Below, in pieces: positions 1-38,639 of a DNA stretch of 39,472 bases. A program made the translations under genes and the position numbers. The stretch's first letter is position 1. The number at the start of each line of letters is the position of its first letter. The notes under the pieces are model-generated. The model did no database searches and was not told where the DNA came from. It saw nothing but the letters and a program-made list of their open reading frames with translations. The DNA comes from a virus (Duplodnaviria; Heunggongvirae; Uroviricota; Caudoviricetes), in IMG/VR virus record IMGVR_UViG_2690316086_000021; one strand, given 5' to 3'.

Positions 1-1254
1 ATGCTGGAACAAATGGGCATTGCCGCGAAGCAAGCCTCGTATAAATTAGCGCAACTCTCCAGCCGCGAAAAAAATCGCGTGCTGGAAAAAATCGCCGATG
101 AACTGGAAGCACAAAGCGAAATCATCCTCAACGCTAACGCCCAGGATGTTGCTGACGCGCGAGCCAATGGCCTTAGCGAAGCGATGCTTGACCGTCTGGC
201 ACTGACGCCCGCACGGCTGAAAGGCATTGCCGACGATGTACGTCAGGTGTGCAACCTCGCCGATCCGGTGGGGCAGGTAATCGATGGCGGCGTACTGGAC
301 AGCGGCCTGCGTCTTGAGCGTCGTCGCGTACCGCTGGGGGTTATTGGCGTGATTTATGAAGCGCGCCCGAACGTGACGGTTGATGTCGCTTCGCTGTGCC
401 TGAAAACCGGTAACGCAGTGATCCTGCGCGGTGGCAAAGAAACGTGTCGCACTAACGCTGCAACGGTGGCGGTGATTCAGGACGCCCTGAAATCCTGCGG
501 CTTACCGGCGGGTGCCGTGCAGGCGATTGATAATCCTGACCGTGCGCTGGTCAGTGAAATGCTGCGTATGGATAAATACATCGACATGCTGATCCCGCGT
601 GGTGGCGCTGGTTTGCATAAACTGTGCCGTGAACAGTCGACAATCCCGGTGATCACAGGTGGTATAGGCGTATGCCATATTTACGTTGATGAAAGTGTAG
701 AGATCGCTGAAGCATTAAAAGTGATCGTCAACGCGAAAACTCAGCGTCCGAGCACATGTAATACGGTTGAAACGTTGCTGGTGAATAAAAACATCGCCGA
801 TAGCTTCCTGCCCGCATTAAGCAAACAAATGGCGGAAAGCGGCGTGACATTACACGCAGATGCAGCTGCACTGGCGCAGTTGCAGGCAGGCCCTGCGAAG
901 GTGGTTGCTGTTAAAGCCGAAGAGTATGACGATGAGTTTCTGTCATTAGATTTGAACGTCAAAATCGTCAGCGATCTTGACGATGCCATCGCCCATATTC
1001 GTGAACACGGCACACAACACTCCGATGCGATCCTGACCCGCGATATGCGCAACGCCCAGCGTTTTGTTAACGAAGTGGATTCGTCCGCTGTTTACGTTAA
1101 CGCCTCTACGCGTTTTACCGACGGCGGCCAGTTTGGTCTGGGTGCGGAAGTGGCGGTAAGCACACAAAAACTCCACGCGCGTGGCCCAATGGGGCTGGAA
1201 GCACTGACCACTTACAAGTGGATCGGCATTGGTGATTACACCATTCGTGCGTAA
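1..1254 (+). CDS. proA: gamma-glutamyl phosphate reductase (glutamate-5-semialdehyde dehydrogenase), complete 417 aa
   Basis: Full-length 417-aa ORF starting at position 1; sequence recognised as enterobacterial ProA; the gene is followed by thrW as in E. coli. Confidence 0.93.
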
Positions 1255-1368: not shown

Positions 1369-1444
1369 GCCGATATAGCTCAGTTGGTAGAGCAGCGCAT
1401 TCGTAATGCGAAGGTCGTAGGTTCGACTCCTATTATCGGCACCA
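1369..1444 (+). tRNA. thrW: tRNA-Thr (anticodon CGU)
   Basis: 76-nt sequence GCCGATATAGCTCAGTTGGTAGAGCAGCGCATTCGTAATGCGAAGGTCGTAGGTTCGACTCCTATTATCGGCACCA with cloverleaf-compatible arms, anticodon loop ..TTCGTAA.. and 3' CCA; lies immediately upstream of an integrase gene. Confidence 0.9.
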
Positions 1445-13572: not shown

Positions 13573-14412
13573 TTATTTCTTTTTTTTATTACTTTCAGAT
13601 AATCGTCGGTTTAATGTGTATTTTATTTGGTTCCTAATCATTTTTTCAGGAATGTCATATTTGTCTAAGAATGATATTATTTCATCCTCGTCAAGCAATC
13701 CATTCTTTATAATTTCATCTATCTGTTTTTGTAGATACCAAACATCCTTCTGTTCTACAGGAGTTAAATTCATATGGCTATTTATGGAGTTGATAGTAGC
13801 ATCACGTTCAAGAACTCTAATCCTTTGATTTAATGAACGAGTGTTTTGTAATATTTCAGATAAAAGATCTTGTTCAGTACGTGGTTTTACTTCTTCAGTT
13901 GGAGGGTATTGATCTAAAGCTCGTTTAAAATTTTTTTCAAATTGCTCCCAGTATGTATTAAAAACTTGCTTTAGAATACGGTCATCTAAAGATTTATCGA
14001 CAAGACAATTGTTTATTGTCCTTACTAATTCCCAAACACTCTCTTTATTTGGCGTTGTGTGATTGAATTGAGCAAGTGGATCTTTTAAATCTTCTGGTTT
14101 TAAGTCAATCAAGAATGTACAAACTTTATTTGTTGAAAGTCCTTTTGCTAGTGCTCCTGTTTCAAACAAAATCCATGGTTTATTTTTATTTTCTTGTGTC
14201 AAACATACAATGCCGACAGATACATCTTTTAATTTATCATTAATTTCAGAGAACCATATAGCGCCACGATCAATATCTCTGGTTGAAATCCATGGCTGCG
14301 AAGCTTGGATAACACACTTCAGCCAGTCGCTAATAAGTTCTGCAACAGCTTGACTTCTTTGCCCAGACCAACTTATGAACACTTTCATTATGTACTCCAT
14401 GTAATCACTCAA
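13573..14412 (-). CDS. TIR-domain protein with uncharacterised C-terminal helical domain (candidate anti-phage defence gene); likely start at ATG 14388
   Basis: N-terminus MKVFISWSGQRSQAVAELISDWL..GIVCLTQENKNKPWILFETGALAKG matches the TIR beta-A motif (VFISxS) and a W(I/C)LxE-type putative catalytic Glu. ATG 14388 has GGAG at 6-nt spacing; the track start at 14412 is a TTG. Visibly AT-rich; opposite strand to neighbours. Confidence 0.7.
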   Translation of the reverse strand: MSDYMEYIMKVFISWSGQRSQAVAELISDWLKCVIQASQPWISTRDIDRGAIWFSEINDKLKDVSVGIVCLTQENKNKPWILFETGALAKGLSTNKVCTFLIDLKPEDLKDPLAQFNHTTPNKESVWELVRTINNCLVDKSLDDRILKQVFNTYWEQFEKNFKRALDQYPPTEEVKPRTEQDLLSEILQNTRSLNQRIRVLERDATINSINSHMNLTPVEQKDVWYLQKQIDEIIKNGLLDEDEIISFLDKYDIPEKMIRNQIKYTLNRRLSESNKKKK

Positions 14413-15981: not shown

Positions 15982-16275
15982 TTATTGTGAGCAATACACA
16001 CGTGCTTCCAGCGGAGTATAAATGCCTAAAGTAATAAAACCGAGCAATCCATTTACGAATGTTTGCTGGGTTTCTGTTTTAACCACATTTTCTGCGCCGC
16101 CACAAATTTTGGCTGCATCAACAGTTTTCTCCTGTCCAATTCCCGAAACGAAGAAATGATGGGTGATGGTTTCCTTTGGTGTTACTGCTGTCGGTTTGTT
16201 TCCAACAGTAAACGTCTGTTGAGCACATCCTGTAATAAGCATTGCCAGAGCGGCAGAAAACAACATTTTTTTCAT
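15982..16275 (-). CDS. bor: Bor lipoprotein (serum-resistance lipoprotein of lambda)
   Basis: From ATG 16275: MKKMLFSAALAMLITGCAQQTFTV..KICGGAENVVKTETQQTFVNGLLGFITLGIYTPLEARVYCSQ, near-identical to recalled lambda Bor; the track's longer start is trimmed. Confidence 0.88.
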   Translation of the reverse strand: MKKMLFSAALAMLITGCAQQTFTVGNKPTAVTPKETITHHFFVSGIGQEKTVDAAKICGGAENVVKTETQQTFVNGLLGFITLGIYTPLEARVYCSQ

Positions 16276-16455
16276 CTTATTATCCTGCATTGTTAAAAAC
16301 GGCAGAATCCTATGTGACAACAATTAAACGATAGTTAAATGGATTGATGAAAATTAAAACTATATAGGTGTACGGTCAGACTATTGGAGGTAGTCAGGAT
16401 TTGAATGTCAGTCTGTTGTCGGCATTCTGGCAATGCAATTTGGATAAAGCGGGGA

Positions 16456-24814: not shown

Positions 24815-24985
24815 ATGTTTGTGAAACCTGTTAAAGGGCGGTCAGTTCCTGACCCTGCCCGCGGCGACCTTTTGCCCGCCGAAGGGCGAAATGTTGATGA
24901 GAACAACTACTGGCTGCGCCGTGAAGCAGCGGGTGATATCCGGCGCGTGAATAAAAAGGTGAACACCGATGACGATAAGCTTTAA
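24815..24985 (+). CDS. Small protein upstream of the sheath gene (DUF2635-like position, 56 aa)
   Basis: Own translation MFVKPVKGRSVPDPARGDLLPAEGRNVDENNYWLRREAAGDIRRVNKKVNTDDDKL; not in the ORF track because it is under 60 aa. Confidence 0.4.
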   Translation: MFVKPVKGRSVPDPARGDLLPAEGRNVDENNYWLRREAAGDIRRVNKKVNTDDDKL

Positions 24986-26465
24986 CACCATTCCGTCGAA
25001 TACGCTGGTTCCGCTGTTTTATGCGGAAATGGATAACCAGGCGGCGAATACTGCACAGGACAGCGGAGCATCGCTGCTGATTGGTCATGCCAATAACGGT
25101 GCAGAGATTGTTGCCAACAGTCTGGTGCTGATGCCATCGGCAGACTATGCACGCCAGATTTGTGGTGCGGGAAGTCAGCTGGCGCGTATGGTCGAGGCTT
25201 ATCGCCAGACCGACCCGTTTGGCGAGCTGTATGTGATTGCCGTTCCTGAATCCACGGGCGCGGCAGCAACAGTTACGCTGACGGTGACCGGGGCGGCAAC
25301 CGAAACCGGCACGGTGAATGTTTATGTGGGACGTACCCGCGTGCAGGCACCGGTGACCAATGGCGATAACGTCGCGACGATTGCCAGCAGTATCCAGGAT
25401 GCCATCAATGCCGTTCCGGCCCTGCCGTTTACGGCCTCATCTTCGGCAGGCGTGGTCACACTGACCGCGCGTCATAAGGGGCTTTGCGGGAATGAAATTC
25501 CTGTCAGCCTCAATTACTACGGCTTTGGTGGGGGCGAAGTGCTGCCTGCGGGCGTACAGATTGCCGTGGCGACGGGGACCGCCGGAACGGGCTCTCCTGT
25601 TCTCACTGGCGCGGTGGCTGCAATGGCGGATGAGCCGTTTGATTATATCGGCCTGCCGTTCAACGACACGGCCTCCGTTAACACGCTGGTGACCGAGATG
25701 AACGATACCAGCGGTCGCTGGAGCTATGCGCGTCAGCTGTATGGTCATGTGTATACGGCAAAGACCGGCACACTGTCAGAACTGGTGAACGCAGGTGACC
25801 AGTTTAACCAGCAGCACATCACCCTGGCGGGGTACGAAAAAGAGACCCAGACGCCTGCCGACGAGCTGGCGGCAAGCCGTACCGCCCGCGCAGCAGTGTT
25901 TATCCGCAACGATCCGGCACGTCCCACGCAGACCGGTGAGCTGGTGGGTATGCTGCCTGCGCCGAAGGGGAAACGGTTCACGATGACCGAACAACAGACC
26001 CTGCTGTCTCATGGCGTGGCAACGGCGTATGTCGAAAGCGGGGTACTGCGCATTCAGCGTGATGTCACCACGTACAGGAAAAACGCTTACGGGGTTGCGG
26101 ATAACAGCTACCTCGACAGCGAGACGCTGCATACCAGTGCGTATGTACTGCGCAAACTGAAATCCGTCATTACCAGTAAGTACGGGCGTCACAAGCTTGC
26201 CAGTGACGGTACCCGCTTTGGTCCCGGTCAGGCGATTGTCACCCCGGCAGTGATCAAAGGGGAACTGCTGGCAACCTACCGTCAGCTCGAGCGTGCGGGG
26301 ATCGTGGAAAACTACGAACTGTTCAAGCAGTACCTGGTTGTGGAGCGTGATGCCAGCGATCCGAACCGCCTGAACACGCTGTTCCCGCCTGACTATGTTA
26401 ACCAGTTGCGTGTCTTTGCCGTGGTTAACCAGTTCCGTCTTCAGTATTCAGAGGAGTCTGCATAA
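24969..26465 (+). CDS. Contractile tail sheath protein (Mu gpL-like)
   Basis: 498-aa ORF followed by a tube gene, in Mu-like tail module order. Confidence 0.85.
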   Translation: MTISFNTIPSNTLVPLFYAEMDNQAANTAQDSGASLLIGHANNGAEIVANSLVLMPSADYARQICGAGSQLARMVEAYRQTDPFGELYVIAVPESTGAAATVTLTVTGAATETGTVNVYVGRTRVQAPVTNGDNVATIASSIQDAINAVPALPFTASSSAGVVTLTARHKGLCGNEIPVSLNYYGFGGGEVLPAGVQIAVATGTAGTGSPVLTGAVAAMADEPFDYIGLPFNDTASVNTLVTEMNDTSGRWSYARQLYGHVYTAKTGTLSELVNAGDQFNQQHITLAGYEKETQTPADELAASRTARAAVFIRNDPARPTQTGELVGMLPAPKGKRFTMTEQQTLLSHGVATAYVESGVLRIQRDVTTYRKNAYGVADNSYLDSETLHTSAYVLRKLKSVITSKYGRHKLASDGTRFGPGQAIVTPAVIKGELLATYRQLERAGIVENYELFKQYLVVERDASDPNRLNTLFPPDYVNQLRVFAVVNQFRLQYSEESA

Positions 26466-26821
26466 TGGCCCGTATCGGGGGAACCTGTTATTTCAAAATT
26501 GACGGTCAGCAGCTATCGCTGACCGGCGGCATTGAGGTGCCCATGAACAGGACGGTCAATGATGACATCATCGGCCTGGACGGTTCAGTGGACCGCAAGG
26601 AAACTCACCGTGCGCCTTATGTCAAAGGGACCTTCAAGGTGCCGAAGAATTTTCCGGTGAGCAAAATCACCTCGTCTGATGAGATGACCATCACTGCCGA
26701 GCTGGCGAACGGTCAGGTCTATGTATTGTCGTCCGCCTGGCTGCACGGTGAAGCGAACCATAATGCCGAAGAAGGCACGGTCGATCTTGAGTTCCACGGT
26801 GAAGAAGGGGATTACCAGTAA
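26465..26821 (+). CDS. Tail tube protein (Mu gpM-like)
   Basis: 118-aa ORF immediately after the sheath, coupled by ATGs. Confidence 0.7.
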   Translation: MARIGGTCYFKIDGQQLSLTGGIEVPMNRTVNDDIIGLDGSVDRKETHRAPYVKGTFKVPKNFPVSKITSSDEMTITAELANGQVYVLSSAWLHGEANHNAEEGTVDLEFHGEEGDYQ

Positions 26822-27090
26822 TGAAAGAGCTTGAGTTAAAGAAACCGATTATTGCTCATGGCGAGACACTCTCCGTACTGGAGTTTGATGAACCCACCGG
26901 GAAGGATGTCCGCGAGCTGGGGTATCCCTACCAGATGAATCAGGATGAGTCCGTCAGACTTCTGGCGCATGTGGTGTCGAAATACATTGTGCGGCTGGCG
27001 AAAGTGCCGCAAAGCTCTGTCGACCAGATGTCTCCGGCAGACCTGAATGCAGCGGCGTGGCTTGTGGCCGGTTTTTTCCTCCAGGCCTGA
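26821..27090 (+). CDS. Tail assembly chaperone (short form)
   Basis: 89-aa ORF before the tape measure gene; ends just after the slippery heptamer T TTT TTC. Confidence 0.6.
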   Translation: MKELELKKPIIAHGETLSVLEFDEPTGKDVRELGYPYQMNQDESVRLLAHVVSKYIVRLAKVPQSSVDQMSPADLNAAAWLVAGFFLQA

Positions 27091-27239
27091 CGGCTGAATA
27101 CCTCACTGATCGCTTCTTTGACTGCGCCAGTTACTGGCGCATTAATCCCTTCGAATTGCTGAATATGCCGATCAGTGAAATTCCCTTGCTGGTCAGTCAG
27201 GCAAACAGGATAGAGCAGGAGAAACGCACACATGGCTGA
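27057..27239 (+). CDS. Tail assembly chaperone -1 frameshift extension
   Basis: ORF in the -1 frame relative to 26821..27090, overlapping its 3' end and running to the tape measure start; its own ATG is probably not used. Confidence 0.5.
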   Translation: MACGRFFPPGLTAEYLTDRFFDCASYWRINPFELLNMPISEIPLLVSQANRIEQEKRTHG

Positions 27240-29067
27240 ATTTGAGCTTAAGGCGTTGATCACCGGTGTCGACAGGCTTTCTCCCGCGCTGTCGAAAATG
27301 CAAAAGAAAATCCGGGGATTTAAACGCCAGGCGGAAGAAGCGTCACAGGGTGGGCTGGCGCTTGGTGGCGGACTAGCTGCGGGTCTGACGCTTTCCCTGA
27401 AATCTTATGCCGATCAGGAAAACGCCGCCACCGGGCTGAAAGTCGCCATGATGGATGCGAACGGCGAGGTTGGAAAGAGCTTTCAGGACATCAATAAACT
27501 GGCTATTGGCCTGGGTAACCAGCTACCCGGTACAACGGCTGATTTCCAGAACATGATGCAGATGCTGGTGCGTCAGGGGATCCCGGCAGAAAACATTCTG
27601 GGCGGTGTGGGTAAAGCGACAGCTTATCTTGCGGTACAACTGAAAAAAACACCGGAAGCGGCTGCTGAGTTTGCTGCAAAGATGCAGGATGCTACCGGAA
27701 CGGCGTCAGAAGACATGATGGGGCTGTTCGACACTATCCAGAAGGCGTTTTATCTGGGCGTTGACGATACCAACATGTTGTCCTTCTTCACTAAAACCAG
27801 TTCTGTTCTGAAGATGGTGAACAAGGACGGTCTTCAGGCTGCACAGAGCCTTGCCCCTATCAGCGTCATGATGGATCAGATGGGGATGAACGGGGAGTCG
27901 GCAGGTAATGCCCTGCGAAAAGTTATCCAGTCCGGATTAAGCGTTAAGAAAATCAGGGACGTTAATAAAGTTATGGCCCGCCAGAAACTCGGAGTGCAGC
28001 TCGATTTTACTGACAGCAAAGGGAGTTTTGGCGGTCTTGATAACATGTTTAAGCAACTGGCAAAGCTGCGAAAACTGACCGACGTTAAGCGAACAGGTGT
28101 ACTTAAGGCAATATTTGGTGATGATGCCGAAACCCTTCAGGTGGTCAATGCTCTGATCGATAAAGGAAAGGATGGCTACGATCAGATCCAGCAGAAGATG
28201 AATAAACAGGCCAGCCTGAATAAACGTGTTCAGGCCCAGCTTGGTACGCTGTCCAACTTGTGGGAGGCAATGACGGGGACCGCAACTAACGGCCTTGCGG
28301 CTATTGGCGGCGCATTTTCTGGTGACGCCAAAAATATCACGCAATGGCTGGGGGAGTTGGGGGAAAAATTCACGAAGTTTGCGGATGAAAATCCCCGGGT
28401 TATTCGCGGCGTCGTCGGGCTTGCTGCCGGTCTTGCGATTCTGAAACTGGGATTGATGGGCGTGGGCAGTGCCATCAGTATTGTCAGCAGGATCATGTCG
28501 ATGACGCCGATTGGCATGATTGCGACGGCGATAGCCCTGGCTGCGGGATTAATTATCACTAACTGGGATGTTGTCGGACCTTATTTCAAGAAGCTCTGGG
28601 AAACCATTGGTCCTTATTTTGAGGCTGGCTGGGAACTCCTTAAGAAAGTTTTTGCCTGGTCGCCGCTGGGGATGGTGATCAATAACTGGGGGCCGGTTGT
28701 TAAGTGGTTTCAGGATATGTGGGACAAGCTGAAGCCAATTATTGAGTGGTTTACCGACAGTTCCGGTGACACGGTCGATGCCATTAACTCGGCGCAGTGG
28801 GGCGCGGGTGCTTATGATGCTTATGGGACGGGAATACCGGCGCGGGGATACACACCTTATCCGGCGGTGGATCCGGCTCAGTCAAACAACGCCTCCGATG
28901 CCACAGGCCCGAATCCCTTCATGATTAACAAAGCTTCTGCGCCAAAAGTTGATGGTGAGATCAAGGTCTCTTTTGTGAATTCGCCTCCGGGTATGCGGGT
29001 TATGGAAACGCGATCCAGCGGTTTTGATGTCAGCCATGATGTTGGCTATACGCGCTTTGGCAGGTAA
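27232..29067 (+). CDS. Tail tape measure protein
   Basis: 611-aa ORF with helical N-terminus and a hydrophobic, Gly/Ala-rich central region; follows the chaperone pair. Confidence 0.85.
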   Translation: MAEFELKALITGVDRLSPALSKMQKKIRGFKRQAEEASQGGLALGGGLAAGLTLSLKSYADQENAATGLKVAMMDANGEVGKSFQDINKLAIGLGNQLPGTTADFQNMMQMLVRQGIPAENILGGVGKATAYLAVQLKKTPEAAAEFAAKMQDATGTASEDMMGLFDTIQKAFYLGVDDTNMLSFFTKTSSVLKMVNKDGLQAAQSLAPISVMMDQMGMNGESAGNALRKVIQSGLSVKKIRDVNKVMARQKLGVQLDFTDSKGSFGGLDNMFKQLAKLRKLTDVKRTGVLKAIFGDDAETLQVVNALIDKGKDGYDQIQQKMNKQASLNKRVQAQLGTLSNLWEAMTGTATNGLAAIGGAFSGDAKNITQWLGELGEKFTKFADENPRVIRGVVGLAAGLAILKLGLMGVGSAISIVSRIMSMTPIGMIATAIALAAGLIITNWDVVGPYFKKLWETIGPYFEAGWELLKKVFAWSPLGMVINNWGPVVKWFQDMWDKLKPIIEWFTDSSGDTVDAINSAQWGAGAYDAYGTGIPARGYTPYPAVDPAQSNNASDATGPNPFMINKASAPKVDGEIKVSFVNSPPGMRVMETRSSGFDVSHDVGYTRFGR

Positions 29068-29127
29068 TGAAAAATTAATCTGTTAATGAGTCCCACTCCG
29101 GTGGGATTTTTTATGTACGGAGTTTAT

Positions 29128-30456
29128 ATGACGTGGAAAGACAGACTTCAGGACGCGTCATTTCGCGGTGTGCCGTTTAAGGTTGAAGAAGAAAGTGCGG
29201 GAACCGGTCGTCGTGTGGAAACGCACGAATACCCGAACCGCGACAAACCCTATACCGAAGACCTGGGGAAAATCACTTTCCGCCCGTCCATCACGGCTTA
29301 TGTGGTGGGAGATGACTGCTTTGACCAGCGCGATCGCCTGATTGACGCGCTGAATAAACCCGGTCCCGGCACGCTTGTCCATCCGACTTACGGTGAGCTG
29401 AAAGTCTGTGTTGACGGAGAGGTTCGGGTCAGCACATCGAAGAGTGAAGGGCGTATTGTCCGCTTTGACCTGAAGTTTGTCGAAGCGGGAGAACTCTCTT
29501 ACCCCACATCAGGTGCGGCGACGGCGCAGACGCTGATGTCATCCTGTTCTGCACTGGATGACTGCATCAGTGACAGCTTCAGCGGTTTCAGTATCGATGG
29601 CGTGGCGGATTTTGTGCAGAACGACGTCGTCGGTAATGCCGGCACAATGCTTGGGTATGTTTCTGATGCGATGAAAGTGGTGGATTCTGCCGTATCGGAT
29701 GCTGCCAGGCTGTTGCAGGGGGATATCTCGGTACTTCTGCCGCCACCATCGTCAGGCAAAAATTTCGTTGAGCAGGTGCAGAAAATGTGGCGTACCGGGA
29801 AACGCCTTTATGGTAACGCCAGCGACCTGGTCACCATGATCAAAACGCTTTCCGGTGTCAGCCTCGGCAGCGATCTGCAACCGCGCGGCGTCTGGAAAAC
29901 GGACAGTAAAACCACCGCCACGGCGACGCATCAGCGTAACGAGGTTGCCAGCACCCTTCGTACGACCGCAATCAGCGAAGCGGCGTATGCCGTCACCCGA
30001 TTGCCTGCGCCAACAACTTCCGCGGTGATGCAGAATGCCGCAGTGGGGCAGGCAACAACACCTGCGCAGAGCACTGGCTGGCCTTCCGTCACGCATCCGG
30101 CACTGAACAATGCACCGGCGGTGAAAAACACGGTTGACCTGCCAACGTGGGAAGAACTGACTGACATTCGCGACACACTGAATACGGCAATTGATAAGGA
30201 GTTGTCCCGTACAACCAGTGATGCGCTGTTTCTGGCACTGCGCCGGGTGAAAGCAGATCTGAATGCGGATATCAACACGCGCCTTGAACAGTCTGCACGG
30301 ATCATTCAGCGCACACCGGATGAGGTTTTACCCGCGCTGGTGCTGGCGGCGACCTGGTTTGATAACGCGGCGCGTGATGCGGACATTATCCGGCGTAATG
30401 CCATTACGCATCCCGGCTTTGTGCCGGTGATCCCTCTGAAGGTGCCAGTGCAATGA
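29128..30456 (+). CDS. DNA circularisation protein (Mu gpN-like)
   Basis: Start at ATG 29128 (GGAG RBS): MTWKDRLQDASFRGVPFKVE.., the signature N-terminus of Mu N-like proteins. Confidence 0.78.
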   Translation: MTWKDRLQDASFRGVPFKVEEESAGTGRRVETHEYPNRDKPYTEDLGKITFRPSITAYVVGDDCFDQRDRLIDALNKPGPGTLVHPTYGELKVCVDGEVRVSTSKSEGRIVRFDLKFVEAGELSYPTSGAATAQTLMSSCSALDDCISDSFSGFSIDGVADFVQNDVVGNAGTMLGYVSDAMKVVDSAVSDAARLLQGDISVLLPPPSSGKNFVEQVQKMWRTGKRLYGNASDLVTMIKTLSGVSLGSDLQPRGVWKTDSKTTATATHQRNEVASTLRTTAISEAAYAVTRLPAPTTSAVMQNAAVGQATTPAQSTGWPSVTHPALNNAPAVKNTVDLPTWEELTDIRDTLNTAIDKELSRTTSDALFLALRRVKADLNADINTRLEQSARIIQRTPDEVLPALVLAATWFDNAARDADIIRRNAITHPGFVPVIPLKVPVQ

Positions 30457-31532
30457 ACGACAATGTCACGCTACGGGTAAATGGCCGGGAGTGGAATGGC
30501 TGGACATCGGTGCGCATCGGTGCCGGTGTTGAACGACTGGCGCGGGATTTCAGTGTGGAGATCACCCGCCAGTGGCCGGGTGATGAGGGTATCACCACGC
30601 TTCAGCCGCGCATTAAAAACGGTTCAAAAGTGGAGGTGCTGATTGGTGATGAGCTGGTGATCACCGGCTGGGTGGAGGCGACGCCCGTTCGTTACGATGC
30701 CCGTTCGGTCAGCACCGGTATTGCCGGACGCAGTCTGACCGCTGACCTGATTGATTGTGCAGCCGAACCGACACAGTTTAACGGACGATCACTGGTACAG
30801 ATTGCGCAGGCGCTTGCTGCGCCCTTCGGCATTGAGGTGGTGAACAGCGGTGCGCCGTCGGGTGTTATTCCTGATGTCCAGCCTGATCACGGTGAAACGG
30901 TGATCGAGGTGATTAACAAAATACTCGGTCAGCAGCAGGCGCTGGCTTATGACGACCCGCACGGCAGGCTGGTGATTGGCGGTATTGGCTCAACGCGGGC
31001 ACATACCGCGCTGGTACTCGGGGAAAACATCCTTTCCTGCGATACGGAGAAGAGTATCCGGGAGCGGTTTTCTGTTTACCAGGTGGCGGGGCAGCGTGCC
31101 GGAAACGACGATGATTTCGGTGAGGCCACCACAACTGCGCTGCGGGCCCGCACAGAGGACGCATTTATTGCCCGTTACCGTCCGATGTATATCAGGCAGA
31201 CAGGGCAGGCTACGGGGGCAGGCTGTATTGCGCGTGCTGACTTTGAAGCCCGACAACGGGCGGCGCGGACGGATGAAACCACCTATGTGGTGCAGGGCTG
31301 GCGACAGGGTAACGGTACGCTGTGGCAGCCCAACCAGCGGGTGATTGTCTTCGATCCGGTCTGTGGTTTCGACAATACCGAACTGCTTGTCTCGGAAGTC
31401 ACGTTTACTCAGGACCAGAACGGCACCCTGACGGAAATCCGTGTCGGCCCACCTGATGCTTATCTGCCTGAACCCGAAGCCCCCGGCGCGCGGAAAAAGA
31501 AAAAAGCCAGAGTACAGGAGGACCCGTTCTGA
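30453..31532 (+). CDS. Baseplate hub / tail protein (Mu gpP-like)
   Basis: 359-aa ORF in conserved Mu tail order, coupled to the upstream gene. Confidence 0.7.
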   Translation: MNDNVTLRVNGREWNGWTSVRIGAGVERLARDFSVEITRQWPGDEGITTLQPRIKNGSKVEVLIGDELVITGWVEATPVRYDARSVSTGIAGRSLTADLIDCAAEPTQFNGRSLVQIAQALAAPFGIEVVNSGAPSGVIPDVQPDHGETVIEVINKILGQQQALAYDDPHGRLVIGGIGSTRAHTALVLGENILSCDTEKSIRERFSVYQVAGQRAGNDDDFGEATTTALRARTEDAFIARYRPMYIRQTGQATGAGCIARADFEARQRAARTDETTYVVQGWRQGNGTLWQPNQRVIVFDPVCGFDNTELLVSEVTFTQDQNGTLTEIRVGPPDAYLPEPEAPGARKKKKARVQEDPF

Positions 31533-32080
31533 TGAGGACGATTGAAGCCATGCAGCGACAACTCCTCGGCCTGATTGGGCGGGCCGTGGTGAAAAGCATC
31601 AGTGCCGCCACGAAATGTCAGACCGTGGATGTGTCCCTGATTGCCGGTGAACCCAAAGCCGGGGTTGAACATCTTGAACCCTACGGTTTTACCGCAAGGG
31701 CAAACAGCGGTGCGGAAGCGGTGGTGTTGTTTCCGGATGGCGACCGTTCTCATGCGGTGGTTGTTACGGTGTCGGACCGGCGCTACCGCCTGAAAGGGCT
31801 GCAGACGGGTGAGGTGGCTGTCTATGACGATCAGGGGCAGTCCGTGACGCTGACCCGGGAGGGGATCGTGGTGGACGGTGCAGGTAAAACGATTACGTTT
31901 CGCAATTCACCTAAAGCACGTTTTGAAATGGACCTGGAAGTGACAGGACAGGTGAAAGACCTGTGCGACTCCAGCGGCACCACCATGTCAGCGATGCGGC
32001 TTGCCTATAACGGGCATCGTCACAGAGAGAACGGTCAGGGCAGTAACACCGACAAACCTGATAAAGCGATGGAGGCATGA
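31532..32080 (+). CDS. Baseplate assembly protein V-like (spike)
   Basis: 182-aa ORF in conserved order (Mu gp45 position). Confidence 0.65.
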   Translation: MRTIEAMQRQLLGLIGRAVVKSISAATKCQTVDVSLIAGEPKAGVEHLEPYGFTARANSGAEAVVLFPDGDRSHAVVVTVSDRRYRLKGLQTGEVAVYDDQGQSVTLTREGIVVDGAGKTITFRNSPKARFEMDLEVTGQVKDLCDSSGTTMSAMRLAYNGHRHRENGQGSNTDKPDKAMEA

Positions 32081-34128: not shown

Positions 34129-34920
34129 ATGCATCGTATAGACACGAAAACCGCGCAGAAGGATAAGTTCGGCGCGGGTAAGAACGGTTTTACCCGTGGT
34201 AACCCCCAAACCGGCACACCTGCCACCGATCTGGATGATGACTACTTTGACATGTTGCAGGAAGAACTTTGTAGCGTGGTGGAGGCCTCCGGTGCCAGCC
34301 TGGAGAAAGGGCGGCATGACCAGCTGCTTACCGCACTTCGTGCGCTGCTGTTAAGCCGCAAGAATCCGTTTGGCGATATCAAATCGGATGGCACAGTGCA
34401 AACGGCTCTCGAAAACCTTGGTTTAGGAGAAGCGGCGAAAAGGGATGTGGGCACGACAGTCGGAACCGTTGCCGCTGGTGATGATTTACGCATAACAGGA
34501 GCACTTCAAAAGGCAAATAATCTTTATGAGTTAACAAATAAATCTGATGCAAGAGCTAATCTTGGGTTAGGAACCGTTGCAACAAAAAACGTGGGAAATA
34601 GTGCTGGGCAAATACCTGATATGTCTTACTGGTCTTCACCGGCAGGCGGAATTAATTTCCCGAATGGGTTCCAGATGCGATTCGGGACTATCGCTGGTAC
34701 TGGTGGAAAATTATTTTCTACGCCATTTACAAATCAGTGCTATGGCATTGTTTTCGGACAAACATATGGAGCCAACTACTGGATGTTCAGCCCGATGTAC
34801 AGAGCATCTGATCTGAGTAATACCAGTTTTGCATTCATTAACAAAGCCTGGTCTGGCGTTCCGGGGGTAGGTTCTCAGGACGCTGGTGAATCAGTTTTTT
34901 ATATTGCAGTAGGGTATTAA
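34129..34920 (+). CDS. Tail fiber protein (constant N-terminus + currently expressed variable C-terminus)
   Basis: N-terminus ..[27 protein letters not shown].. is the conserved tail-fiber N-terminal motif; the crossover site lies inside the gene at about 34406..34432; the 3' part is visibly AT-rich. Confidence 0.72.
34406..34432. repeat. Left recombination site of the invertible tail-fiber segment (hix/gix-like)
   Basis: CTCTCGAAAACCTTGGTTTAGGAGAAG contains the GAAAACC..GGTTT core typical of Hin/Gin sites and is repeated in inverted orientation at 36384..36408. Confidence 0.6.
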
Positions 34921-34921
34921 T

Positions 34922-35365
34922 ATGGAAATGGTTTATAGCGCCTCAAATAATAGTTTTTTCGCTAAAAATGATGTGGCGAAATATGAACAGGCCGGATGGG
35001 AACTTGCTGATATTGTCGAAGTGACATATGACACTTACCTGGAATTTATTGAAGACAGAACGTTGCAAGGGAAAGTACGCATCGCGGGTGATGATGGCCT
35101 TCCCACCTGGGGGGAAATTCCACCGCCAACTCATGAGGAACAAATTGCCGCAGCCGAACTGGAAAAGCAGCAATTGATTAATCAGGTCAACGAATACATA
35201 TACAGTAAGCAATGGCCTGGTAAAGCAGCGATTGGTCGCCTGAAAGGTGAGGAACTGGCGCAATATAATTTGTGGCTGGATTATCTGGACGTACTGGAGC
35301 TGGTCGATACTTCCGGTGCGCCAGATATTGAATGGCCTACGCCTCCGGCAGTTCAGGCCAGATGA
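34922..35365 (+). CDS. Tail fiber assembly protein (Tfa)
   Basis: 147-aa ORF with typical Tfa N-terminus (MEMVYSASNNSFFAKNDV..). Confidence 0.72.
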   Translation: MEMVYSASNNSFFAKNDVAKYEQAGWELADIVEVTYDTYLEFIEDRTLQGKVRIAGDDGLPTWGEIPPPTHEEQIAAAELEKQQLINQVNEYIYSKQWPGKAAIGRLKGEELAQYNLWLDYLDVLELVDTSGAPDIEWPTPPAVQAR

Positions 35366-35930
35366 CATCCGGCGCGGTGCTCGTATCTGTTGCCGTCACC
35401 GCGTCAATGTAATCAAGCACGGCGTTAAGCCGGGTGGTTTCTGCCTGCGTCAGCTTCCGCCCGGCCTGTAATTTCAGCTGAATCAGGCTGATGGAAGCCA
35501 TTGCAGCATCAATCAGTGACTGGCGCTGTGCTTCTGCCGCTTCTACTGCGGCACCGTGTTGTGCCTCAGTATCTGTCACCCATTTCTCACCATCCCATTT
35601 ATCATATGGCGTTAACGGTGAAAGCGTGACATAACCGTTTTTGATGGCACCGATATAATCCACTGTAACAGCTGCGCCATTTTCGATTGAGTAAACAGTC
35701 TCATTGCGATGGTCTTCTTCATGGCTCCATCCCTTACCCGTAAATACTGCCACTTTTCCCGGAATGTTTTCGCCAGGGTCAATACCAGTGGAACAGGCGG
35801 GCATACTTACGCCAGTATTAATATATTCATCAGACCAGCCCGTATATTCATACGTTACTGCATCATAATAAAAACAACGCATATCACCCGGCACTGTAGC
35901 CAGTCCATTTTCATCAAAAACAGGTTTCAT
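35337..35930 (-). CDS. Alternative tail fiber assembly protein (inverted orientation, Tfa')
   Basis: 197-aa minus-strand ORF; its C-terminus (..DYIDAVTATDTSTAPDVIWPELP) parallels the plus-strand Tfa C-terminus (..DVLELVDTSGAPDIEWPTPP). Confidence 0.68.
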   Translation of the reverse strand: MKPVFDENGLATVPGDMRCFYYDAVTYEYTGWSDEYINTGVSMPACSTGIDPGENIPGKVAVFTGKGWSHEEDHRNETVYSIENGAAVTVDYIGAIKNGYVTLSPLTPYDKWDGEKWVTDTEAQHGAAVEAAEAQRQSLIDAAMASISLIQLKLQAGRKLTQAETTRLNAVLDYIDAVTATDTSTAPDVIWPELPEA

Positions 35931-36439
35931 TATTTAGCCCTTACTAAAAAGTTGAATGCGATGTTACGGGGACGCGTTTCAGTACCGCCTGGGTTTTGAA
36001 AAGCGGGCAAAGCACTTCCAGCCGGCTGACTAACGCCGCTGGTATATAATGGAGAAGCATTCGAAACGGTGCCAAACACTACATTACTGCCACTTCCATT
36101 TAGCCCTAAAATTTTATGCTCGTGCGTTTTGAAATCGTCTGATTGTGCGGAAAGTAATGCACGGCCACTGTCAACGCCACGGCCATCATCCCAGATACGA
36201 ATAAATTCACCGCGTGCTTCAGGCAGTGTTAATGCAGGAAACACCAGAGCGAGTTTTGGATAATTCGACGCTGAGAATGTGGCTCCGTTGAACTTCAGAA
36301 ACACCATACTGGACCAGCTGTCGATTACAGTATTTGGCATTGCAGCGGACGGCCAGAAGAACGGAACGCCAATAGCTGGAGCACCTTCTCCCAAACCAAC
36401 ATTTATGAAAATGCAGAAATAACGAGCAAATGGCATCAT
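35930..36439 (-). CDS. Alternative tail fiber C-terminal segment (silent until inversion)
   Basis: Minus-strand ORF ending ..RNIAFNFLVRAK (conserved fiber C-terminal motif); shares the junction peptide GLGE with the expressed fiber at the recombination site. Confidence 0.6.
   Translation of the reverse strand: MMPFARYFCIFINVGLGEGAPAIGVPFFWPSAAMPNTVIDSWSSMVFLKFNGATFSASNYPKLALVFPALTLPEARGEFIRIWDDGRGVDSGRALLSAQSDDFKTHEHKILGLNGSGSNVVFGTVSNASPLYTSGVSQPAGSALPAFQNPGGTETRPRNIAFNFLVRAK
36384..36408. repeat. Right recombination site of the invertible segment (inverted copy)
   Basis: The reverse complement TTCATAAATGTTGGTTTGGGAGAAG matches the left site over TTGGTTT(A/G)GGAGAAG. Confidence 0.55.
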
Positions 36440-36689: not shown

Positions 36690-38639
36690 TTAATCGTGTT
36701 TTGGCCATACTTTCAATGCAATTTCCCCCAACATTTTACCCCGCTCCAGGATTTCATCCTCATCCCATTTATCCTTAACTATAAGTGGAATGTTCAGTCG
36801 TAGATTGGTGTGGACGATGAGAGCATCACGTTTTTTCAGAAATACAGCATTCTGAACAGAACGGTTTACGCTAAGGTTAAGCAAAGTTAGATTTCCCAAC
36901 GTAGCTATCGCTTGTTGCCGTTTCCTTACCAGTAGCTGTTCTGGGGTAAGATCGGTTCCAGACAGAACAATTTGGTTCAATACCGTAGCATCTGAATTTG
37001 TCACCATATGACCATTTTCGAGAGGCCAACAGGAATACCAACTTTGAGGCATAAGATGATCGATATCGAGGTTAGAAAGATTTGGAACATCAGGCTTCTC
37101 TGTCTTCACTTGGCGACAAAGTTCTCTTTCAAGTTCCGTTAACATTGAGCGCATTTTCGGTGCGTCGAGCCTGCCAGGATAAAGTGGAGCATTGATGCAA
37201 GCGTTGAGAAATTCTGAGTCCCCAGGCCAACGTGAGGCTTCGCCATTTAAGCTATTGAGGATATTACGTAACTCAACACTGGAAATTTCTGTTTTAGACA
37301 AGTGCCGCAATACATTCATAAATACATTGTTGTAATTCTTTGGCGTCAGGCCACATACGGCTCTTCGTACTACGTAGGAGACAAGATCATTATACATGGC
37401 TGCTTTCTCATCATCGGCGATGTTAGCTATCGAAATGAACAAAGCAAGCGGATAAAGTGTCGTCACATCATAGGCTGCGATGCGATGTCCAAAGTGTGAG
37501 ATGGGGGTTGTGCCAAAACCACCAACCAATTCTTTATATTGTGATGCATATTGTTTGAGGCGCTTTACTTGCAGATCTGCTCGTTGTGAAGGCAAGTCCT
37601 TACTTACATAATCACGATACTCATTGTAAAGACGAGACAGATCGATTTCACGTTGCCTTTCTGATTGCAATGTTGCATGCACTAGCCACTCCATGCGTGG
37701 TTTATTAATACGACCACGACGTTGTCTTTCTGACCAGTACGTATCTTCAAAGATCTTCCACTCATTCTCATATAATTCAACAGCATTAATATTTTCATGT
37801 TCAGCGCACATAAAAATATAATTGCGAATAAGATCTGTGGCATGAAGTTCCGCACCTCTGCCATTTAATGTTTCAAAAATTATTTGAGCGTCATCTTCAG
37901 CCTCGAGAAATATGCTTACTAGTTTCAGATCCGTCAAGACAGCCTCAATTAATGCTACAGCATTTTCTCGTGGTGAGTGATTTTCTATTTTAATCCACTT
38001 TATAAAGGCTTCAGTAAAAAAACATAATGCTTCTAGTGATGGCGGGTGATTAAAATGCTTACGCAACGTACCATGCTGCGTGAAACTATCAGAGAATACA
38101 TTCCGGATATCGTCAATATTTTCAACATTAAAACTTTGAATAAAATGAGTTTGATCCCGAAAAGTTGGCCACAGTTTGAAGCGCTCTACTTCTTTATTTC
38201 GCATTGTGTCTTCGTTTGAGTTTTTCAGGCAAGACGAAATGAGAGGCTCTAAGTAGGAAAGATCTGTTGCACGTAATGCTAATCGGATGGATGCCAGAAC
38301 ATATTGAAGAGTGGTCAATCGTTGCTGACCATCAATAATATGTATGGAATCTACACCGAATAATCCTTTTTTTGGTTGAGGTTCCAGTACAACTGCACCA
38401 AGGAAATGGGGAGTTGGTTTTGTACCCGAGAGCCGGGATTGTGCTTTCTCTAGGATATCCTCCAGTAGAGCTGACCATTGGTTTCGCTGAGTCCATACAT
38501 AGGCACGTTGATAGAATGGAACACAGTATTGTCGGCGGTCTTGAAAAAGTTGTTGGACAGTTAGCGTCTCGGATTTCATGGTATACCTGTAAGCGACATT
38601 GTACAAAAGTGAGGAGTTAATCTGATTTAGAACAATCAT
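36690..38639 (-). CDS. GmrSD-like type IV (modification-dependent) restriction endonuclease: N-terminal DUF262 + C-terminal DUF1524
   Basis: N-terminal ..FYQRAYVW....IIDGQQRLTTL.. (DUF262 DGQQR motif) and C-terminal ..DIDHLMPQSW.. region (DUF1524 His-Me finger-like); visibly AT-rich; start is either 38639 or ATG 38579. Confidence 0.75.
   Translation of the reverse strand: MIVLNQINSSLLYNVAYRYTMKSETLTVQQLFQDRRQYCVPFYQRAYVWTQRNQWSALLEDILEKAQSRLSGTKPTPHFLGAVVLEPQPKKGLFGVDSIHIIDGQQRLTTLQYVLASIRLALRATDLSYLEPLISSCLKNSNEDTMRNKEVERFKLWPTFRDQTHFIQSFNVENIDDIRNVFSDSFTQHGTLRKHFNHPPSLEALCFFTEAFIKWIKIENHSPRENAVALIEAVLTDLKLVSIFLEAEDDAQIIFETLNGRGAELHATDLIRNYIFMCAEHENINAVELYENEWKIFEDTYWSERQRRGRINKPRMEWLVHATLQSERQREIDLSRLYNEYRDYVSKDLPSQRADLQVKRLKQYASQYKELVGGFGTTPISHFGHRIAAYDVTTLYPLALFISIANIADDEKAAMYNDLVSYVVRRAVCGLTPKNYNNVFMNVLRHLSKTEISSVELRNILNSLNGEASRWPGDSEFLNACINAPLYPGRLDAPKMRSMLTELERELCRQVKTEKPDVPNLSNLDIDHLMPQSWYSCWPLENGHMVTNSDATVLNQIVLSGTDLTPEQLLVRKRQQAIATLGNLTLLNLSVNRSVQNAVFLKKRDALIVHTNLRLNIPLIVKDKWDEDEILERGKMLGEIALKVWPKHD

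What the first reader, a model, noticed from the sequence alone, without database searches (positions are those of the whole stretch)
27057..27090. Programmed -1 frameshift site in the tail assembly chaperone
The slippery heptamer T TTT TTC (27072..27078) lies in the overlap of the chaperone ORF and a -1 frame ORF that runs to the tape measure start. This is the conserved G/GT-type arrangement. The predicted fusion reads ..AAWLVAGFF then PPGLTAEYLTDRFF...
Basis: partly seen in the sequence, partly recalled or inferred. Interest (0 to 1): 0.5.

Follow-up and report, generated by a model that had tools for sequence, protein, structure and literature searches.

The report
Frameshift site in phage tail chaperone
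This is a genuine but ordinary programmed -1 ribosomal frameshift site in the tail assembly chaperone gene of an SfV-like E. coli prophage, homologous to the proven E/E+E' site of phage P2 and missing from public annotations.

Summary
T TTT TTC (27072..27078) sits in X_XXY_YYZ register (GGT TTT TTC) near the end of an 89-aa tail assembly chaperone gene (26821..27090, Pfam PF10109). That gene lies between the tail tube and tape measure genes. The -1 frame is open from 26949 to 27239 and ends 8 nt inside the tape measure ORF.

The window alone is weak evidence. Given the protein GFF, 26% of synonymous recodings produce such a heptamer. The comparative evidence is decisive:
- All parsed relatives keep T TTT TT[C/T/G] at the homologous position: 89 unique loci, plus 93 sequences of the enterobacterial clade.
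- GC-rich hosts keep it with otherwise rare codons.
- Third-codon-position variation switches from the 0 frame to the -1 frame exactly at the heptamer.
- 58 of 89 relatives have no start codon for the -1 ORF.
- The fusion aligns over both parts with P2 gpE+E' (hhalign 95%), whose slip site T TTT TTG lies at the same place.

No conserved nearby stimulatory structure exists. A clade-specific hairpin 45 nt downstream (27124..27140) is conserved at synonymous sites and unexplained.

Verdict: interpretation supported. It is a new, unannotated member of a well-known kind, of low to moderate interest.

The parts
26821..27090 (+). Tail assembly chaperone gene, zero-frame product of 89 aa (9.9 kDa), the gpE/gpG-like short form
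   Evidence: ORF. PF10109 Phage_TAC_7 E=2.4e-15, residues 4-86 on profile positions 2-78 of 79. PHROG 166 'tail protein' E=4e-23. PGAP names it 'phage tail assembly protein' in the near-identical E. coli O103 ML775 prophage.
27072..27078 (+). Slippery heptamer T TTT TTC (X_XXY_YYZ; P-site UUU, A-site UUC, both read by tRNA-Phe)
   Evidence: Register verified. Invariant in 80/80 species-level genome loci (78 TTTTTTC, 2 TTTTTTT), in 93/93 unique enterobacterial-clade sequences, and T TTT TT[C/T/G] in 10 divergent phages and P2. Column entropy is 0 at its three wobble positions while neighbouring wobble positions score 1.4-1.8. U_UU.U_UU.C belongs to the shift-prone class in E. coli (PMC4066793).
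27078..27239 (+). -1 frame extension: 53 codons PPGLTAEYLTDRFFDCASYWRINPFELLNMPISEIPLLVSQANRIEQEKRTHG plus stop TGA 27237..27239, the E'/T-like C-terminal part of the fusion. Fusion CDS = join(26821..27078, 27078..27239), 139 aa
   Evidence: Third-position variability follows the -1 frame from the heptamer onward in two clades. The conserved motif F/Y-W-(R/K)-x-(N/D)-P is shared with P2 E' (FHWPPSEL). PHROG 32181, 'unknown function', E=3e-41.
27088..27090 (+). Zero-frame stop codon TGA of the short form, 10 nt after the heptamer
   Evidence: The distance from heptamer to stop varies among relatives (12, 30, 33, 51, 66 nt), so the stop is not part of a conserved signal.
27124..27140 (+). Conserved hairpin GCGCCAG-TTA-CTGGCGC (7 G+C-rich pairs, -9.8 kcal/mol), 45 nt 3' of the heptamer inside the extension. 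Role unknown; a candidate modulator, not shown to belong to the frameshift signal
   Evidence: Folds. Present in 93/93 unique enterobacterial-clade sequences; the only stem change is C->T, which keeps a G-U pair. All 4 free wobble positions in the stem are (near-)invariant, against 4 of 24 elsewhere (Fisher p=0.003; p=0.007 on 11 genera). Absent from the Pseudomonas/Burkholderia clade and unique in the window.
27217..27234 (+). Shine-Dalgarno AGGAGA (27217..27222) and ATG (27232..27234) of the tape measure gene. The extension's stop overlaps the ATG (ATGGCTGA)
   Evidence: Sequence. In 80 relatives the -1 ORF ends within about 10 nt of the tape measure start (22 nt in one locus), typically overlapping it by 4 or 8 nt.
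26465..26821 (+). Tail tube gene immediately upstream (context)
   Evidence: PF10618 Tail_tube E=2.4e-33.
27232..29067 (+). Tape measure protein gene immediately downstream (context)
   Evidence: PF10145 PhageMin_Tail E=3.5e-27.

Best explanation
During late expression of this SfV-like prophage, most ribosomes translate the chaperone gene 26821..27090 and stop at TGA 27088, giving an 89-aa chaperone. A minority slip back one nucleotide on U UUU UUC (27072..27078). The tRNA-Phe molecules on UUU and UUC re-pair with UUU and UUU. Those ribosomes continue in the -1 frame through CCU CCA GGC... to TGA 27237. The result is a 139-aa protein with the same N-terminus plus a 53-residue extension.

By homology with P2 gpE/gpE+E' and analogy with lambda gpG/gpGT, the shared N-terminal domain is expected to coat the tape measure protein. 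The rarer extension is expected to recruit the tube protein, so that a fixed short:long ratio sets up tail assembly.

Shown here: the anatomy, the selection on the nucleotide run, -1 frame coding after the site, the lack of an own start, and homology to P2 E+E'. Inferred: that the shift is ribosomal, its efficiency, and the roles of the two proteins. No conserved stimulator lies next to the site, so efficiency is probably low, as is usual for this class.
For: 1. Position and identity. The order is sheath, tube, chaperone (PF10109), tape measure, then Mu-type baseplate genes.
2. Conservation of the heptamer. It is kept in register in 80/80 genome loci, one per species, in 10 divergent phages and P2, and in 93/93 enterobacterial-clade sequences. 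The residue before FF varies (G, S, R, N, D, P) but its codon always ends in T.
3. Codon usage. In 68 GC-rich loci GGT, AGT and TTT make up 13%, 4% and 9% of their codon families elsewhere in the same genes, but 100% at the site.
4. Coding phase. Column entropy peaks at zero-frame third positions upstream of the heptamer and at -1 frame third positions downstream, in two independent clades. It is zero across the heptamer.
5. No independent start. 58 of 89 unique relatives have no ATG/GTG/TTG in the -1 ORF up to 30 nt past the heptamer. Only 2 have a start with an SD-like tetramer.
6. Narrow shift zone. Across the family the -1 frame opens as little as 9 nt before the heptamer, and the zero frame closes as little as 12 nt after it.
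7. Homology to P2. The profile of fusions against P2 gpE+E' gives hhalign probability 95%, E=3.5e-8, over 122 columns spanning both halves, with GFF aligned to GFL. PF10109 ends at the slip site in both proteins. RefSeq marks the P2 -1 frameshift site, and PMC3091744 describes it at TTTTTTG.
8. Motif competence. U_UU.U_UU.C is shift-prone in E. coli: 0.12% alone, 0.89% and 7.6% with the IS911 and IS3 stimulators (PMC4066793 Table S3).
Against: There is no experimental detection of the 139-aa product from this element. In a reporter context the bare heptamer gives only about 0.1% frameshifting, and no conserved stimulator is found within the usual 5-9 nt, so the native efficiency is unknown. 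The motif alone is not improbable given the GFF peptide (26%). Transcriptional slippage on the T run would give the same protein and is not excluded by sequence. The extension does not hit Pfam PF06528 (P2 GpE) directly. One relative (Paraburkholderia phage IPK, an unverified record) lacks the heptamer (GGC TTC TTC), so the signal is not universal.
Confidence: 0.85

Rival explanations
1. Transcriptional slippage. RNA polymerase occasionally adds one extra U while copying the T6 run, giving an mRNA in which standard translation yields the same 139-aa protein (GGU UUU UUU CCU... = G F F P).
For: Homopolymeric T/A runs are known slippage sites, and U7/A7 are avoided in E. coli genes in all frames, possibly for this reason (PMC4066793). 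Some relatives carry T7 (SfIV, ST64B, phiP27). A weak terminator-like stem (27058..27070) directly precedes the T run. Genomic alleles with a 1-nt insertion at the site encode exactly the predicted fusion.
Against: T6 is short for efficient bacterial slippage (general knowledge; not tested here). 78 of 80 species-level loci have TTC, not the synonymous TTT that would lengthen the run. The sequence upstream of the run folds no better than shuffles across 70 unique relatives (mean z=+0.21), and ST64B has no stem at all. The homologous P2 site is annotated and described as a translational frameshift.
Confidence: 0.07
2. Independent initiation. The -1 ORF is a separate small gene translated from GTG 27057 into a 60-aa protein, as annotated in Escherichia phage vB_EcoM-689R6 and as many 'hypothetical protein' entries.
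For: A GTG lies in the -1 frame at 27057. Public records call a 60-aa protein there. PHROG 32181 treats it as its own family.
Against: No Shine-Dalgarno-like sequence precedes the GTG; the upstream sequence is CCTGAATGCAGCGGC. The GTG/ATG there is a by-product of the conserved Trp codon of the zero frame. 58 of 89 relatives have no start codon at all before the conserved part, and only 2 have a start with an SD-like tetramer. Pantoea phage AH07, SfIV, ST64B, phiP27 and the Burkholderia, Pseudomonas and Bordetella phages lack any upstream start.
Confidence: 0.03
3. No recoding. The -1 ORF is a non-coding spacer that happens to be open, and only the 89-aa protein is made.
For: Current RefSeq, PGAP and most phage records annotate only the 89-aa gene and leave 27091..27231 empty.
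Against: The 141-nt 'spacer' shows clear -1 frame codon periodicity (variable columns 27/17/41 by codon position). Its protein motif is conserved from Enterobacterales to Pseudomonas and P2. It stays open for 50-63 codons in every one of the 89 unique relatives.
Confidence: 0.02

Closest known systems
Phage P2 gpE / gpE+E' (-1 frameshift at T TTT TTG in the FETUD tail operon; Christie et al. 2002 as cited in PMC3091744; RefSeq NC_001895 features P2p25/P2p26)
   Same: Same Pfam family for the shared part (PF10109, ending at the slip site in both). Same position between the tube (FII) and tape measure (T) genes. The same U6N heptamer follows a GGT codon at the aligned ..VGFL / ..AGFF position. 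The -1 extension has similar length (53 vs 57 residues) with an aligned aromatic-W-x-x-P motif and ends overlapping the tape measure start. No nearby downstream hairpin is reported for P2 (PMC3091744), and none is conserved here.
   Different: Pairwise sequence similarity is undetectable by BLASTP (E=0.65); only the profile comparison shows it. The seventh base is C rather than G. The extension does not match Pfam PF06528 (Phage_P2_GpE). The surrounding tail module is Mu-type (DNA_circ_N, gpP-like, Gp45), not P2-type. This clade has a conserved hairpin 45 nt downstream. No counterpart was looked for in P2 here.
Phage lambda gpG / gpGT (-1 frameshift at G GGA AAG; Levin et al. 1993; Xu, Hendrix and Duda 2004, 2013, 2014 as summarised in PMC5009743)
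   Same: Same logic: a chaperone gene between the major tail gene and the tape measure gene, a low-level -1 shift near its 3' end, and two products sharing an N-terminus. In lambda their ratio matters for tail assembly.
   Different: Different slippery heptamer and a different protein family (no lambda-type family was hit here; one search shows only PF10109). Lambda has a non-contractile tail. The binding partners of the two domains are known for lambda and only inferred here.
Phage Mu gp41 (Mup41) tail assembly chaperone with a -2 frameshift (Xu et al. 2004 and Baranov et al. 2006 as cited in PMC5009743)
   Same: Same gene position in a homologous tail module (sheath L, tube M, gp41, tape measure gp42, DNA circularisation protein, gpP, gp45). 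Mu gp41 reaches PF10109 only marginally (24.7 bits against a cut-off of 25).
   Different: Mu gp41 is 144 aa and belongs to PF23746, which the window's protein does not hit. Mu has no X_XXY_YYZ heptamer in the overlap, and its extension lies in the +1/-2 frame (PMC5009743). Here the +1 frame is closed (open only 27047..27097) and the extension is in the -1 frame.
Stimulated bacterial -1 frameshift signals (dnaX, IS911, IS3: heptamer plus a downstream hairpin or pseudoknot 5-9 nt away and/or an upstream SD-like element)
   Same: An X_XXY_YYZ heptamer of the efficient class (PMC4066793).
   Different: No conserved structure begins within about 10 nt of the heptamer. No SD-like element was seen upstream by inspection, and no selected fold lies upstream. 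The only conserved hairpin is 45 nt away and clade-specific.

Membership tests
Tail assembly chaperone genes with a programmed frameshift (G/GT-type arrangement, Xu et al. 2004) | The gene lies between the major tail/tube gene and the tape measure gene | tested here: met
   Tube gene PF10618 26465..26821, chaperone 26821..27090, tape measure gene PF10145 27232..29067.
Tail assembly chaperone genes with a programmed frameshift (G/GT-type arrangement, Xu et al. 2004) | A second ORF in an alternative frame overlaps the 3' end, runs to the tape measure gene and lacks its own translation start | tested here: met
   The -1 frame is open 26949..27239. 58/89 relatives have no start codon, and only 2 have a start with an SD-like tetramer. 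The window's own GTG 27057 has no SD.
Tail assembly chaperone genes with a programmed frameshift (G/GT-type arrangement, Xu et al. 2004) | A slippery sequence in the correct register inside the overlap, conserved among relatives | tested here: met
   T TTT TTC 27072..27078. Conserved in 80/80, 93/93 and 11/11 sets. Codon-usage anomaly. Entropy 0 at the heptamer.
Tail assembly chaperone genes with a programmed frameshift (G/GT-type arrangement, Xu et al. 2004) | The alternative-frame segment is protein-coding (purifying selection in that frame) | tested here: met
   Third-position variability switches to the -1 frame at the heptamer in two clades. The extension has a conserved motif.
Tail assembly chaperone genes with a programmed frameshift (G/GT-type arrangement, Xu et al. 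2004) | Two proteins with a common N-terminus are made at a fixed ratio, and both are needed for tail assembly | not testable with these tools
   Needs a Western blot, mass spectrometry and genetics. Known for lambda (PMC5009743).
P2 gpE / gpE+E' family | The N-terminal part matches Pfam PF10109 (Phage_TAC_7) above the gathering threshold | tested here: met
   56.7 bits against a cut-off of 25, residues 4-86. P2 gpE+E' scores 47.8 bits, residues 7-85.
P2 gpE / gpE+E' family | A U6N slip site at the homologous position, the C-terminal edge of the PF10109 domain (..GF[FL]) | tested here: met
   hhalign aligns window ..VAGFF with P2 ..VVGFL. The DNA is GGT TTT TTC here and GGT TTT TTG in P2.
P2 gpE / gpE+E' family | The frameshifted extension matches Pfam PF06528 (Phage_P2_GpE, the E' part) | tested here: inconclusive
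   hmmscan of the extension gives no PF06528 hit even at E<=10. The profile-profile alignment does extend through P2 E' (columns to residue 136), and a Bordetella relative gives a weak PF06528 hit (E=0.064).
Mu gp41 family (-2 frameshift) | The protein matches Pfam PF23746 (Gp41_Mu) | tested here: not met
   Only PF10109 is reported for the window protein. Mu gp41 hits PF23746 at 119.5 bits.
Mu gp41 family (-2 frameshift) | The extension is encoded in the +1/-2 frame | tested here: not met
   The window's +1 frame is open only 27047..27097. The extension is in the -1 frame.
Structure-stimulated -1 frameshift signals (dnaX/IS3/IS911 type) | A stable hairpin or pseudoknot starts 5-9 nt downstream of the heptamer and is conserved | tested here: not met
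   Only a weak 4-bp stem (27084..27095) that is broken in 7 of 11 relatives. The consensus folds of the enterobacterial clade show only the distant hairpin, and the Pseudomonas clade fold is -2.4 kcal/mol. No Rfam match.

The most novel reading that the evidence does not exclude
The invariant hairpin GCGCCAG-UUA-CUGGCGC (27124..27140) may be a new kind of distal control element for this recoding cassette. It lies 45 nt past the slip site, in a stretch that only frameshifted ribosomes translate. It could tune frameshift efficiency at long range, for instance through ribosome pausing or queuing, or it could set tape measure translation or mRNA stability in the 141-nt gap left untranslated by the roughly 95-99% of ribosomes expected to stop at 27090. 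Rare natural alleles with a 1-nt insertion (GGG TTT TTT or T7) that hard-wire the fusion would then be natural tests of whether the short form is dispensable.
Probability: 0.12. Interest if true: 0.45.

Novelty: new member of a known kind. Interest (0 to 1): 0.25.

Why it matters
The practical value is for annotation. This prophage family is in about one in five complete E. coli genomes (1104 of 5426) and includes the Shigella serotype-converting phages SfV, SfII and SfI. None of the records inspected (RefSeq SfV, a PGAP-annotated E. coli genome, Pantoea phage AH07, Edwardsiella phage EPP-1) joins the two frames. The extension is either left blank or called a 60-aa hypothetical protein, and PHROGs files it as a family of unknown function. 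Recognising the site assigns a function to that orphan ORF.

It also shows that a Mu-type tail module can carry a P2-type (-1, U6N) rather than a Mu-type (-2) recoding signal. The chaperone and its recoding signal therefore do not track the rest of the module. Biologically it adds no new principle.

Tried and rejected
- Locus retrieval. The search for related loci with the 10-sequence alignment failed because no stretch was conserved enough. A 5-sequence alignment worked.
- Direct similarity. BLASTP of the fusion against P2 gpE+E' is not significant (E=0.65); homology needed the profile comparison.
- Other libraries. No NCBIfam family, no solved structure by sequence, and no Rfam family (one sub-threshold CRISPR-repeat chance hit).
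- Slippery site pairing with the tape measure Shine-Dalgarno region. RNAalifold paired UUUUUCCU (27073..27080) with AGGAGAAA about 140 nt downstream. I rejected this as coincidence: CCUCC is simply anti-SD-like, and the bases after the heptamer differ in the other clades.
- Proximal 4-bp stem 27084..27095. Its closing pair uses a Thr wobble base that is G in only 4 of 11 relatives, so I rejected it.
- Long-range stem CACUGAUCG/CGAUCAGUG (27104..27112 with 27169..27177; the 102-nt fold has z=-3.3). It is not conserved: 26 of 85 sequences form 4 or fewer of its 9 pairs.
- Terminator-like stem 27058..27070 before the T run. It is weak, and the upstream 30-mers of 70 relatives fold no better than shuffles.
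- Ribosome-collision geometry for the distal hairpin. By my arithmetic a trailing ribosome would sit 2-4 codons away from the slip site. I left this as speculation.
- Literature. The P2 frameshift paper (PMC135442) is not held. I found no paper on the SfV, SfII or ST64B chaperone frameshift. The ST64B 'frameshift in the tail assembly gene' mentioned in PMC7067206 is described there as a disabling mutation, not as programmed recoding.
- Structure prediction was not attempted.

Full report
**What is there**

The window is a prophage integrated next to proA at a tRNA-Thr(CGU) gene (1369..1444). It is 99.99% identical to a prophage of E. coli O103 strain ML775, apart from one inverted segment. The 1.4 kb around the finding is 98.6-99% identical to Shigella phages SfII, SfV and SfI, and homologous DNA is present in 1104 of 5426 complete E. 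coli genomes.

Around the finding the plus strand carries a contractile-tail module:

| Coordinates | Gene | Pfam evidence |
|---|---|---|
| 24969..26465 | sheath | Phage_sheath domains |
| 26465..26821 | tube | PF10618 |
| 26821..27090 | 89-aa ORF | PF10109 Phage_TAC_7, E=2.4e-15 |
| 27232..29067 | tape measure | PF10145 |
| 29086..30456 | DNA circularisation protein | PF07157 |
| 30453..31532 | Mu gpP-like hub | gpP-like domains |
| 31532..32080 | Mu gp45-like spike | PF06890 |

**Checking the observation**

- The zero-frame codons are GGT TTT TTC CTC CAG GCC TGA. TTTTTTC at 27072..27078 is therefore in X_XXY_YYZ register.
- The -1 frame is open from 26949 to the stop at 27237..27239, which overlaps the tape measure ATG (27232) as ATGGCTGA.
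- The +1 frame is closed (open only 27047..27097).
The masses are 9.9 kDa for the short form and 15.8 kDa for the fusion.

The motif is not remarkable in isolation. TTTTTTC occurs 21 times in the window. Given the peptide GFF and local codon usage, 26% of synonymous recodings create a T_TTT_TTN heptamer in the overlap. The case rests on comparison with relatives.

**Comparative evidence**

I collected three sets of relatives:
- Divergent phages from GenBank: Pantoea AH07, Edwardsiella EPP-1, SfIV, ST64B, phiP27, Burkholderia BgVeeders33, Pseudomonas DVM-2008 and PG1, and Bordetella PBb002. They are 29-76% identical at protein level.
- 80 genome loci, one per bacterial species.
- About 130 further viral contigs of the enterobacterial clade.

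Every parsed locus has T TTT TT[C/T/G] in register at the homologous ..x-F-[FL] position. Each also has a -1 ORF of 50-63 codons that ends within about 10 nt of the tape measure start (22 nt in one locus).

The residue before FF varies (G, S, R, N, D, P), but its codon always ends in T. In 68 GC-rich loci GGT, AGT and TTT account for 13%, 4% and 9% of their codon families elsewhere in the same genes, yet 100% at the site.

Column entropy tells the same story in two separate clades. Variation sits at zero-frame third positions upstream of the heptamer and at -1 frame third positions downstream. The three wobble positions inside the heptamer are invariant, while the neighbouring ones (-9, -6, -3) score 1.4-1.8 bits.

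The shift zone is narrow. Across the family the -1 frame opens as little as 9 nt before the heptamer, and the zero frame closes as little as 12 nt after it. The heptamer is the only conserved element in that zone.

Independent initiation is not a conserved route. 58 of 89 unique relatives have no ATG/GTG/TTG in the -1 ORF up to 30 nt past the heptamer, and only two have a start with an SD-like tetramer. The window's GTG at 27057 has no Shine-Dalgarno sequence and is a by-product of the conserved zero-frame Trp codon.

**Relation to known systems**

P2 is the closest relative.
- A profile of the fusions aligns with P2 gpE+E' at 95% probability (E=3.5e-8) over 122 columns spanning both halves, with ..VAGFF aligned to P2 ..VVGFL.
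- The P2 DNA reads GGT TTT TTG at that point. RefSeq marks it as the site of the -1 translational frameshift, and PMC3091744 describes the P2 shift at TTTTTTG producing E (91 aa) and E+E' (142 aa).
- PF10109 ends at the slip site in both proteins.

This is therefore the P2-type recoding signal in a homologous chaperone. Phage Mu differs, even though the rest of this tail module resembles Mu. Mu has a PF23746 chaperone, no heptamer in the overlap and an extension in the +1/-2 frame. The recoding review PMC5009743 states that Mu uses -2 frameshifting. Lambda G/GT is the functional analogue with a different heptamer and protein family. Its products bind the tape measure protein (G part) and the major tail protein (T part), and their 30:1 ratio is crucial for tail assembly.

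**Mechanism**

In E. coli, U_UU.U_UU.C belongs to the efficient H_HH.U_UU.Y class (PMC4066793). Measured values are 0.12% without a stimulator, 0.89% with the IS911 stimulator and 7.6% with the IS3 pseudoknot. P2's UUUUUUG gives 0.12, 0.25 and 0.77% (Table S3).

I looked for stimulators.
- Nothing conserved begins within about 10 nt downstream. A 4-bp stem at 27084..27095 is broken in most relatives. The consensus folds of the enterobacterial clade and the Pseudomonas clade (-2.4 kcal/mol) show nothing proximal.
- Rfam has no match.
- A terminator-like stem just upstream (27058..27070) is weak, and upstream sequences of 70 relatives fold no better than shuffles.

This agrees with the reported absence of hairpins at the P2-type sites (PMC3091744). 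The likely picture is a low-efficiency slip driven by the heptamer alone.

Transcriptional slippage on the T run would give the same protein. I rate it unlikely but cannot exclude it from sequence. The reasons are that T6 is short, 78 of 80 loci keep TTC rather than the synonymous TTT that would lengthen the run, and there is no selected upstream hairpin.

**An unexplained extra**

Forty-five nt downstream, inside the extension (codons C-A-S-Y-W-R), lies a perfect hairpin GCGCCAG-TTA-CTGGCGC (27124..27140, -9.8 kcal/mol).
- All 93 unique sequences of the enterobacterial clade keep it.
- The only stem change is C->T, which preserves a G-U pair.
- The loop wobble base and all flanking wobble bases vary freely.
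- The four synonymous-free stem positions are (near-)invariant, against 4 of 24 elsewhere (Fisher p=0.003; p=0.007 on 11 genera).
- It is absent from the Pseudomonas/Burkholderia clade and from SfIV, ST64B and phiP27.

Its distance from the heptamer is far outside the range of known direct stimulators. It lies in RNA that only frameshifted ribosomes translate. Its role is open: frameshift tuning, tape measure translation or mRNA stability.

**State of public annotation**

RefSeq SfV, the PGAP-annotated E. coli O103 ML775 genome, AH07 and EPP-1 annotate only the 89-aa gene and leave 27091..27231 blank. One phage record and many genome records call a 60-aa hypothetical protein there. PHROGs holds it as family 32181 of unknown function.

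The exact 139-aa fusion does exist in NCBI (KDU40741.1, STK26617.1). This is only because those assemblies carry a 1-nt insertion at the site: GGG TTT TTT in four assemblies and T7 in one.

**Verdict**

This is a new, unannotated member of a well-known kind: the P2 gpE/gpE+E' type of tail-chaperone frameshift. It is useful for annotation but not surprising to a specialist. The distal hairpin is the only element that might repay an experiment.

Noticed in passing
window 27124..27140: Perfect 7-bp G+C-rich hairpin GCGCCAG-TTA-CTGGCGC, 45 nt 3' of the slippery heptamer. It is invariant at synonymous sites in 93/93 unique enterobacterial-clade relatives (the only stem change keeps a G-U pair), while flanking wobble positions vary. 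It is absent from other clades of the same chaperone family. Function unknown.
   Followed up: partly
window 34418..36399 (end repeats TTGGTTTAGGAGAAG at 34418..34432 and its 14/15 inverted copy at 36385..36399): A 1,982-bp segment is inverted relative to the otherwise 99.99% identical prophage of E. coli O103 ML775. The ends carry a gix/hix-like AAACCTTGGTTT motif. Inside are facing tail-fibre C-terminus and tail-fibre-assembly ORFs (34129..34920 +, 34922..35365 +, 35337..35930 -, 35930..36439 -). This looks like a Mu G-segment-type host-range switch. Only a 123-nt recombinase remnant is annotated beside it in ML775, so inversion may depend on an invertase supplied in trans.
   Followed up: partly
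L006 and L007 (1731..1760), L178 and L180 (about 845..860), L179 (about 845..860): Rare assemblies carry a 1-nt insertion at the slip site (GCT GGG TTT TTT CCT in four, GGT TTT TTT CCT in one). The whole 139-aa fusion is then one ORF and no short form would be made. L179 also has a split tape measure gene, which suggests assembly errors there. The GGG allele recurs in four assemblies from several sources (two IMG/VR contigs, one NCBI genome, one ENA metagenome) and may be real.
   Followed up: partly
L090 (Paraburkholderia phage IPK, PV588664.1, unverified record), about 1040..1100: This homologue has GGC TTC TTC instead of the T run. The -1 frame is closed by two stops just after it and opens only about 10 nt before the zero-frame stop, yet the conserved extension (..FDLAHFWNVSP..) is intact. 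Either it uses a different recoding site or the record contains errors.
   Followed up: no
window about 13573..14412 (- strand), 15982..16323 (- strand), 36690..38639 (- strand): Probable accessory genes, named from the PGAP annotation of the near-identical ML775 prophage. A TIR-domain protein lies between the Q antiterminator and the holin genes. The serum-survival lipoprotein gene iss lies next to the lysis genes. A 649-aa ORF (PGAP calls it at 629 aa) encodes a DUF262-domain protein beyond the tail-fibre segment (ORFs). The TIR and DUF262 genes could be anti-phage defence cargo.
   Followed up: no
window 27073..27080 with 27217..27224: The consensus fold pairs the slippery site and following bases (UUUUUCCU) with the tape measure Shine-Dalgarno region (AGGAGAAA/G) in the enterobacterial clade. 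I judged this coincidental because CCUCC is anti-SD-like and the post-heptamer bases differ in other clades. It was not tested.
   Followed up: partly
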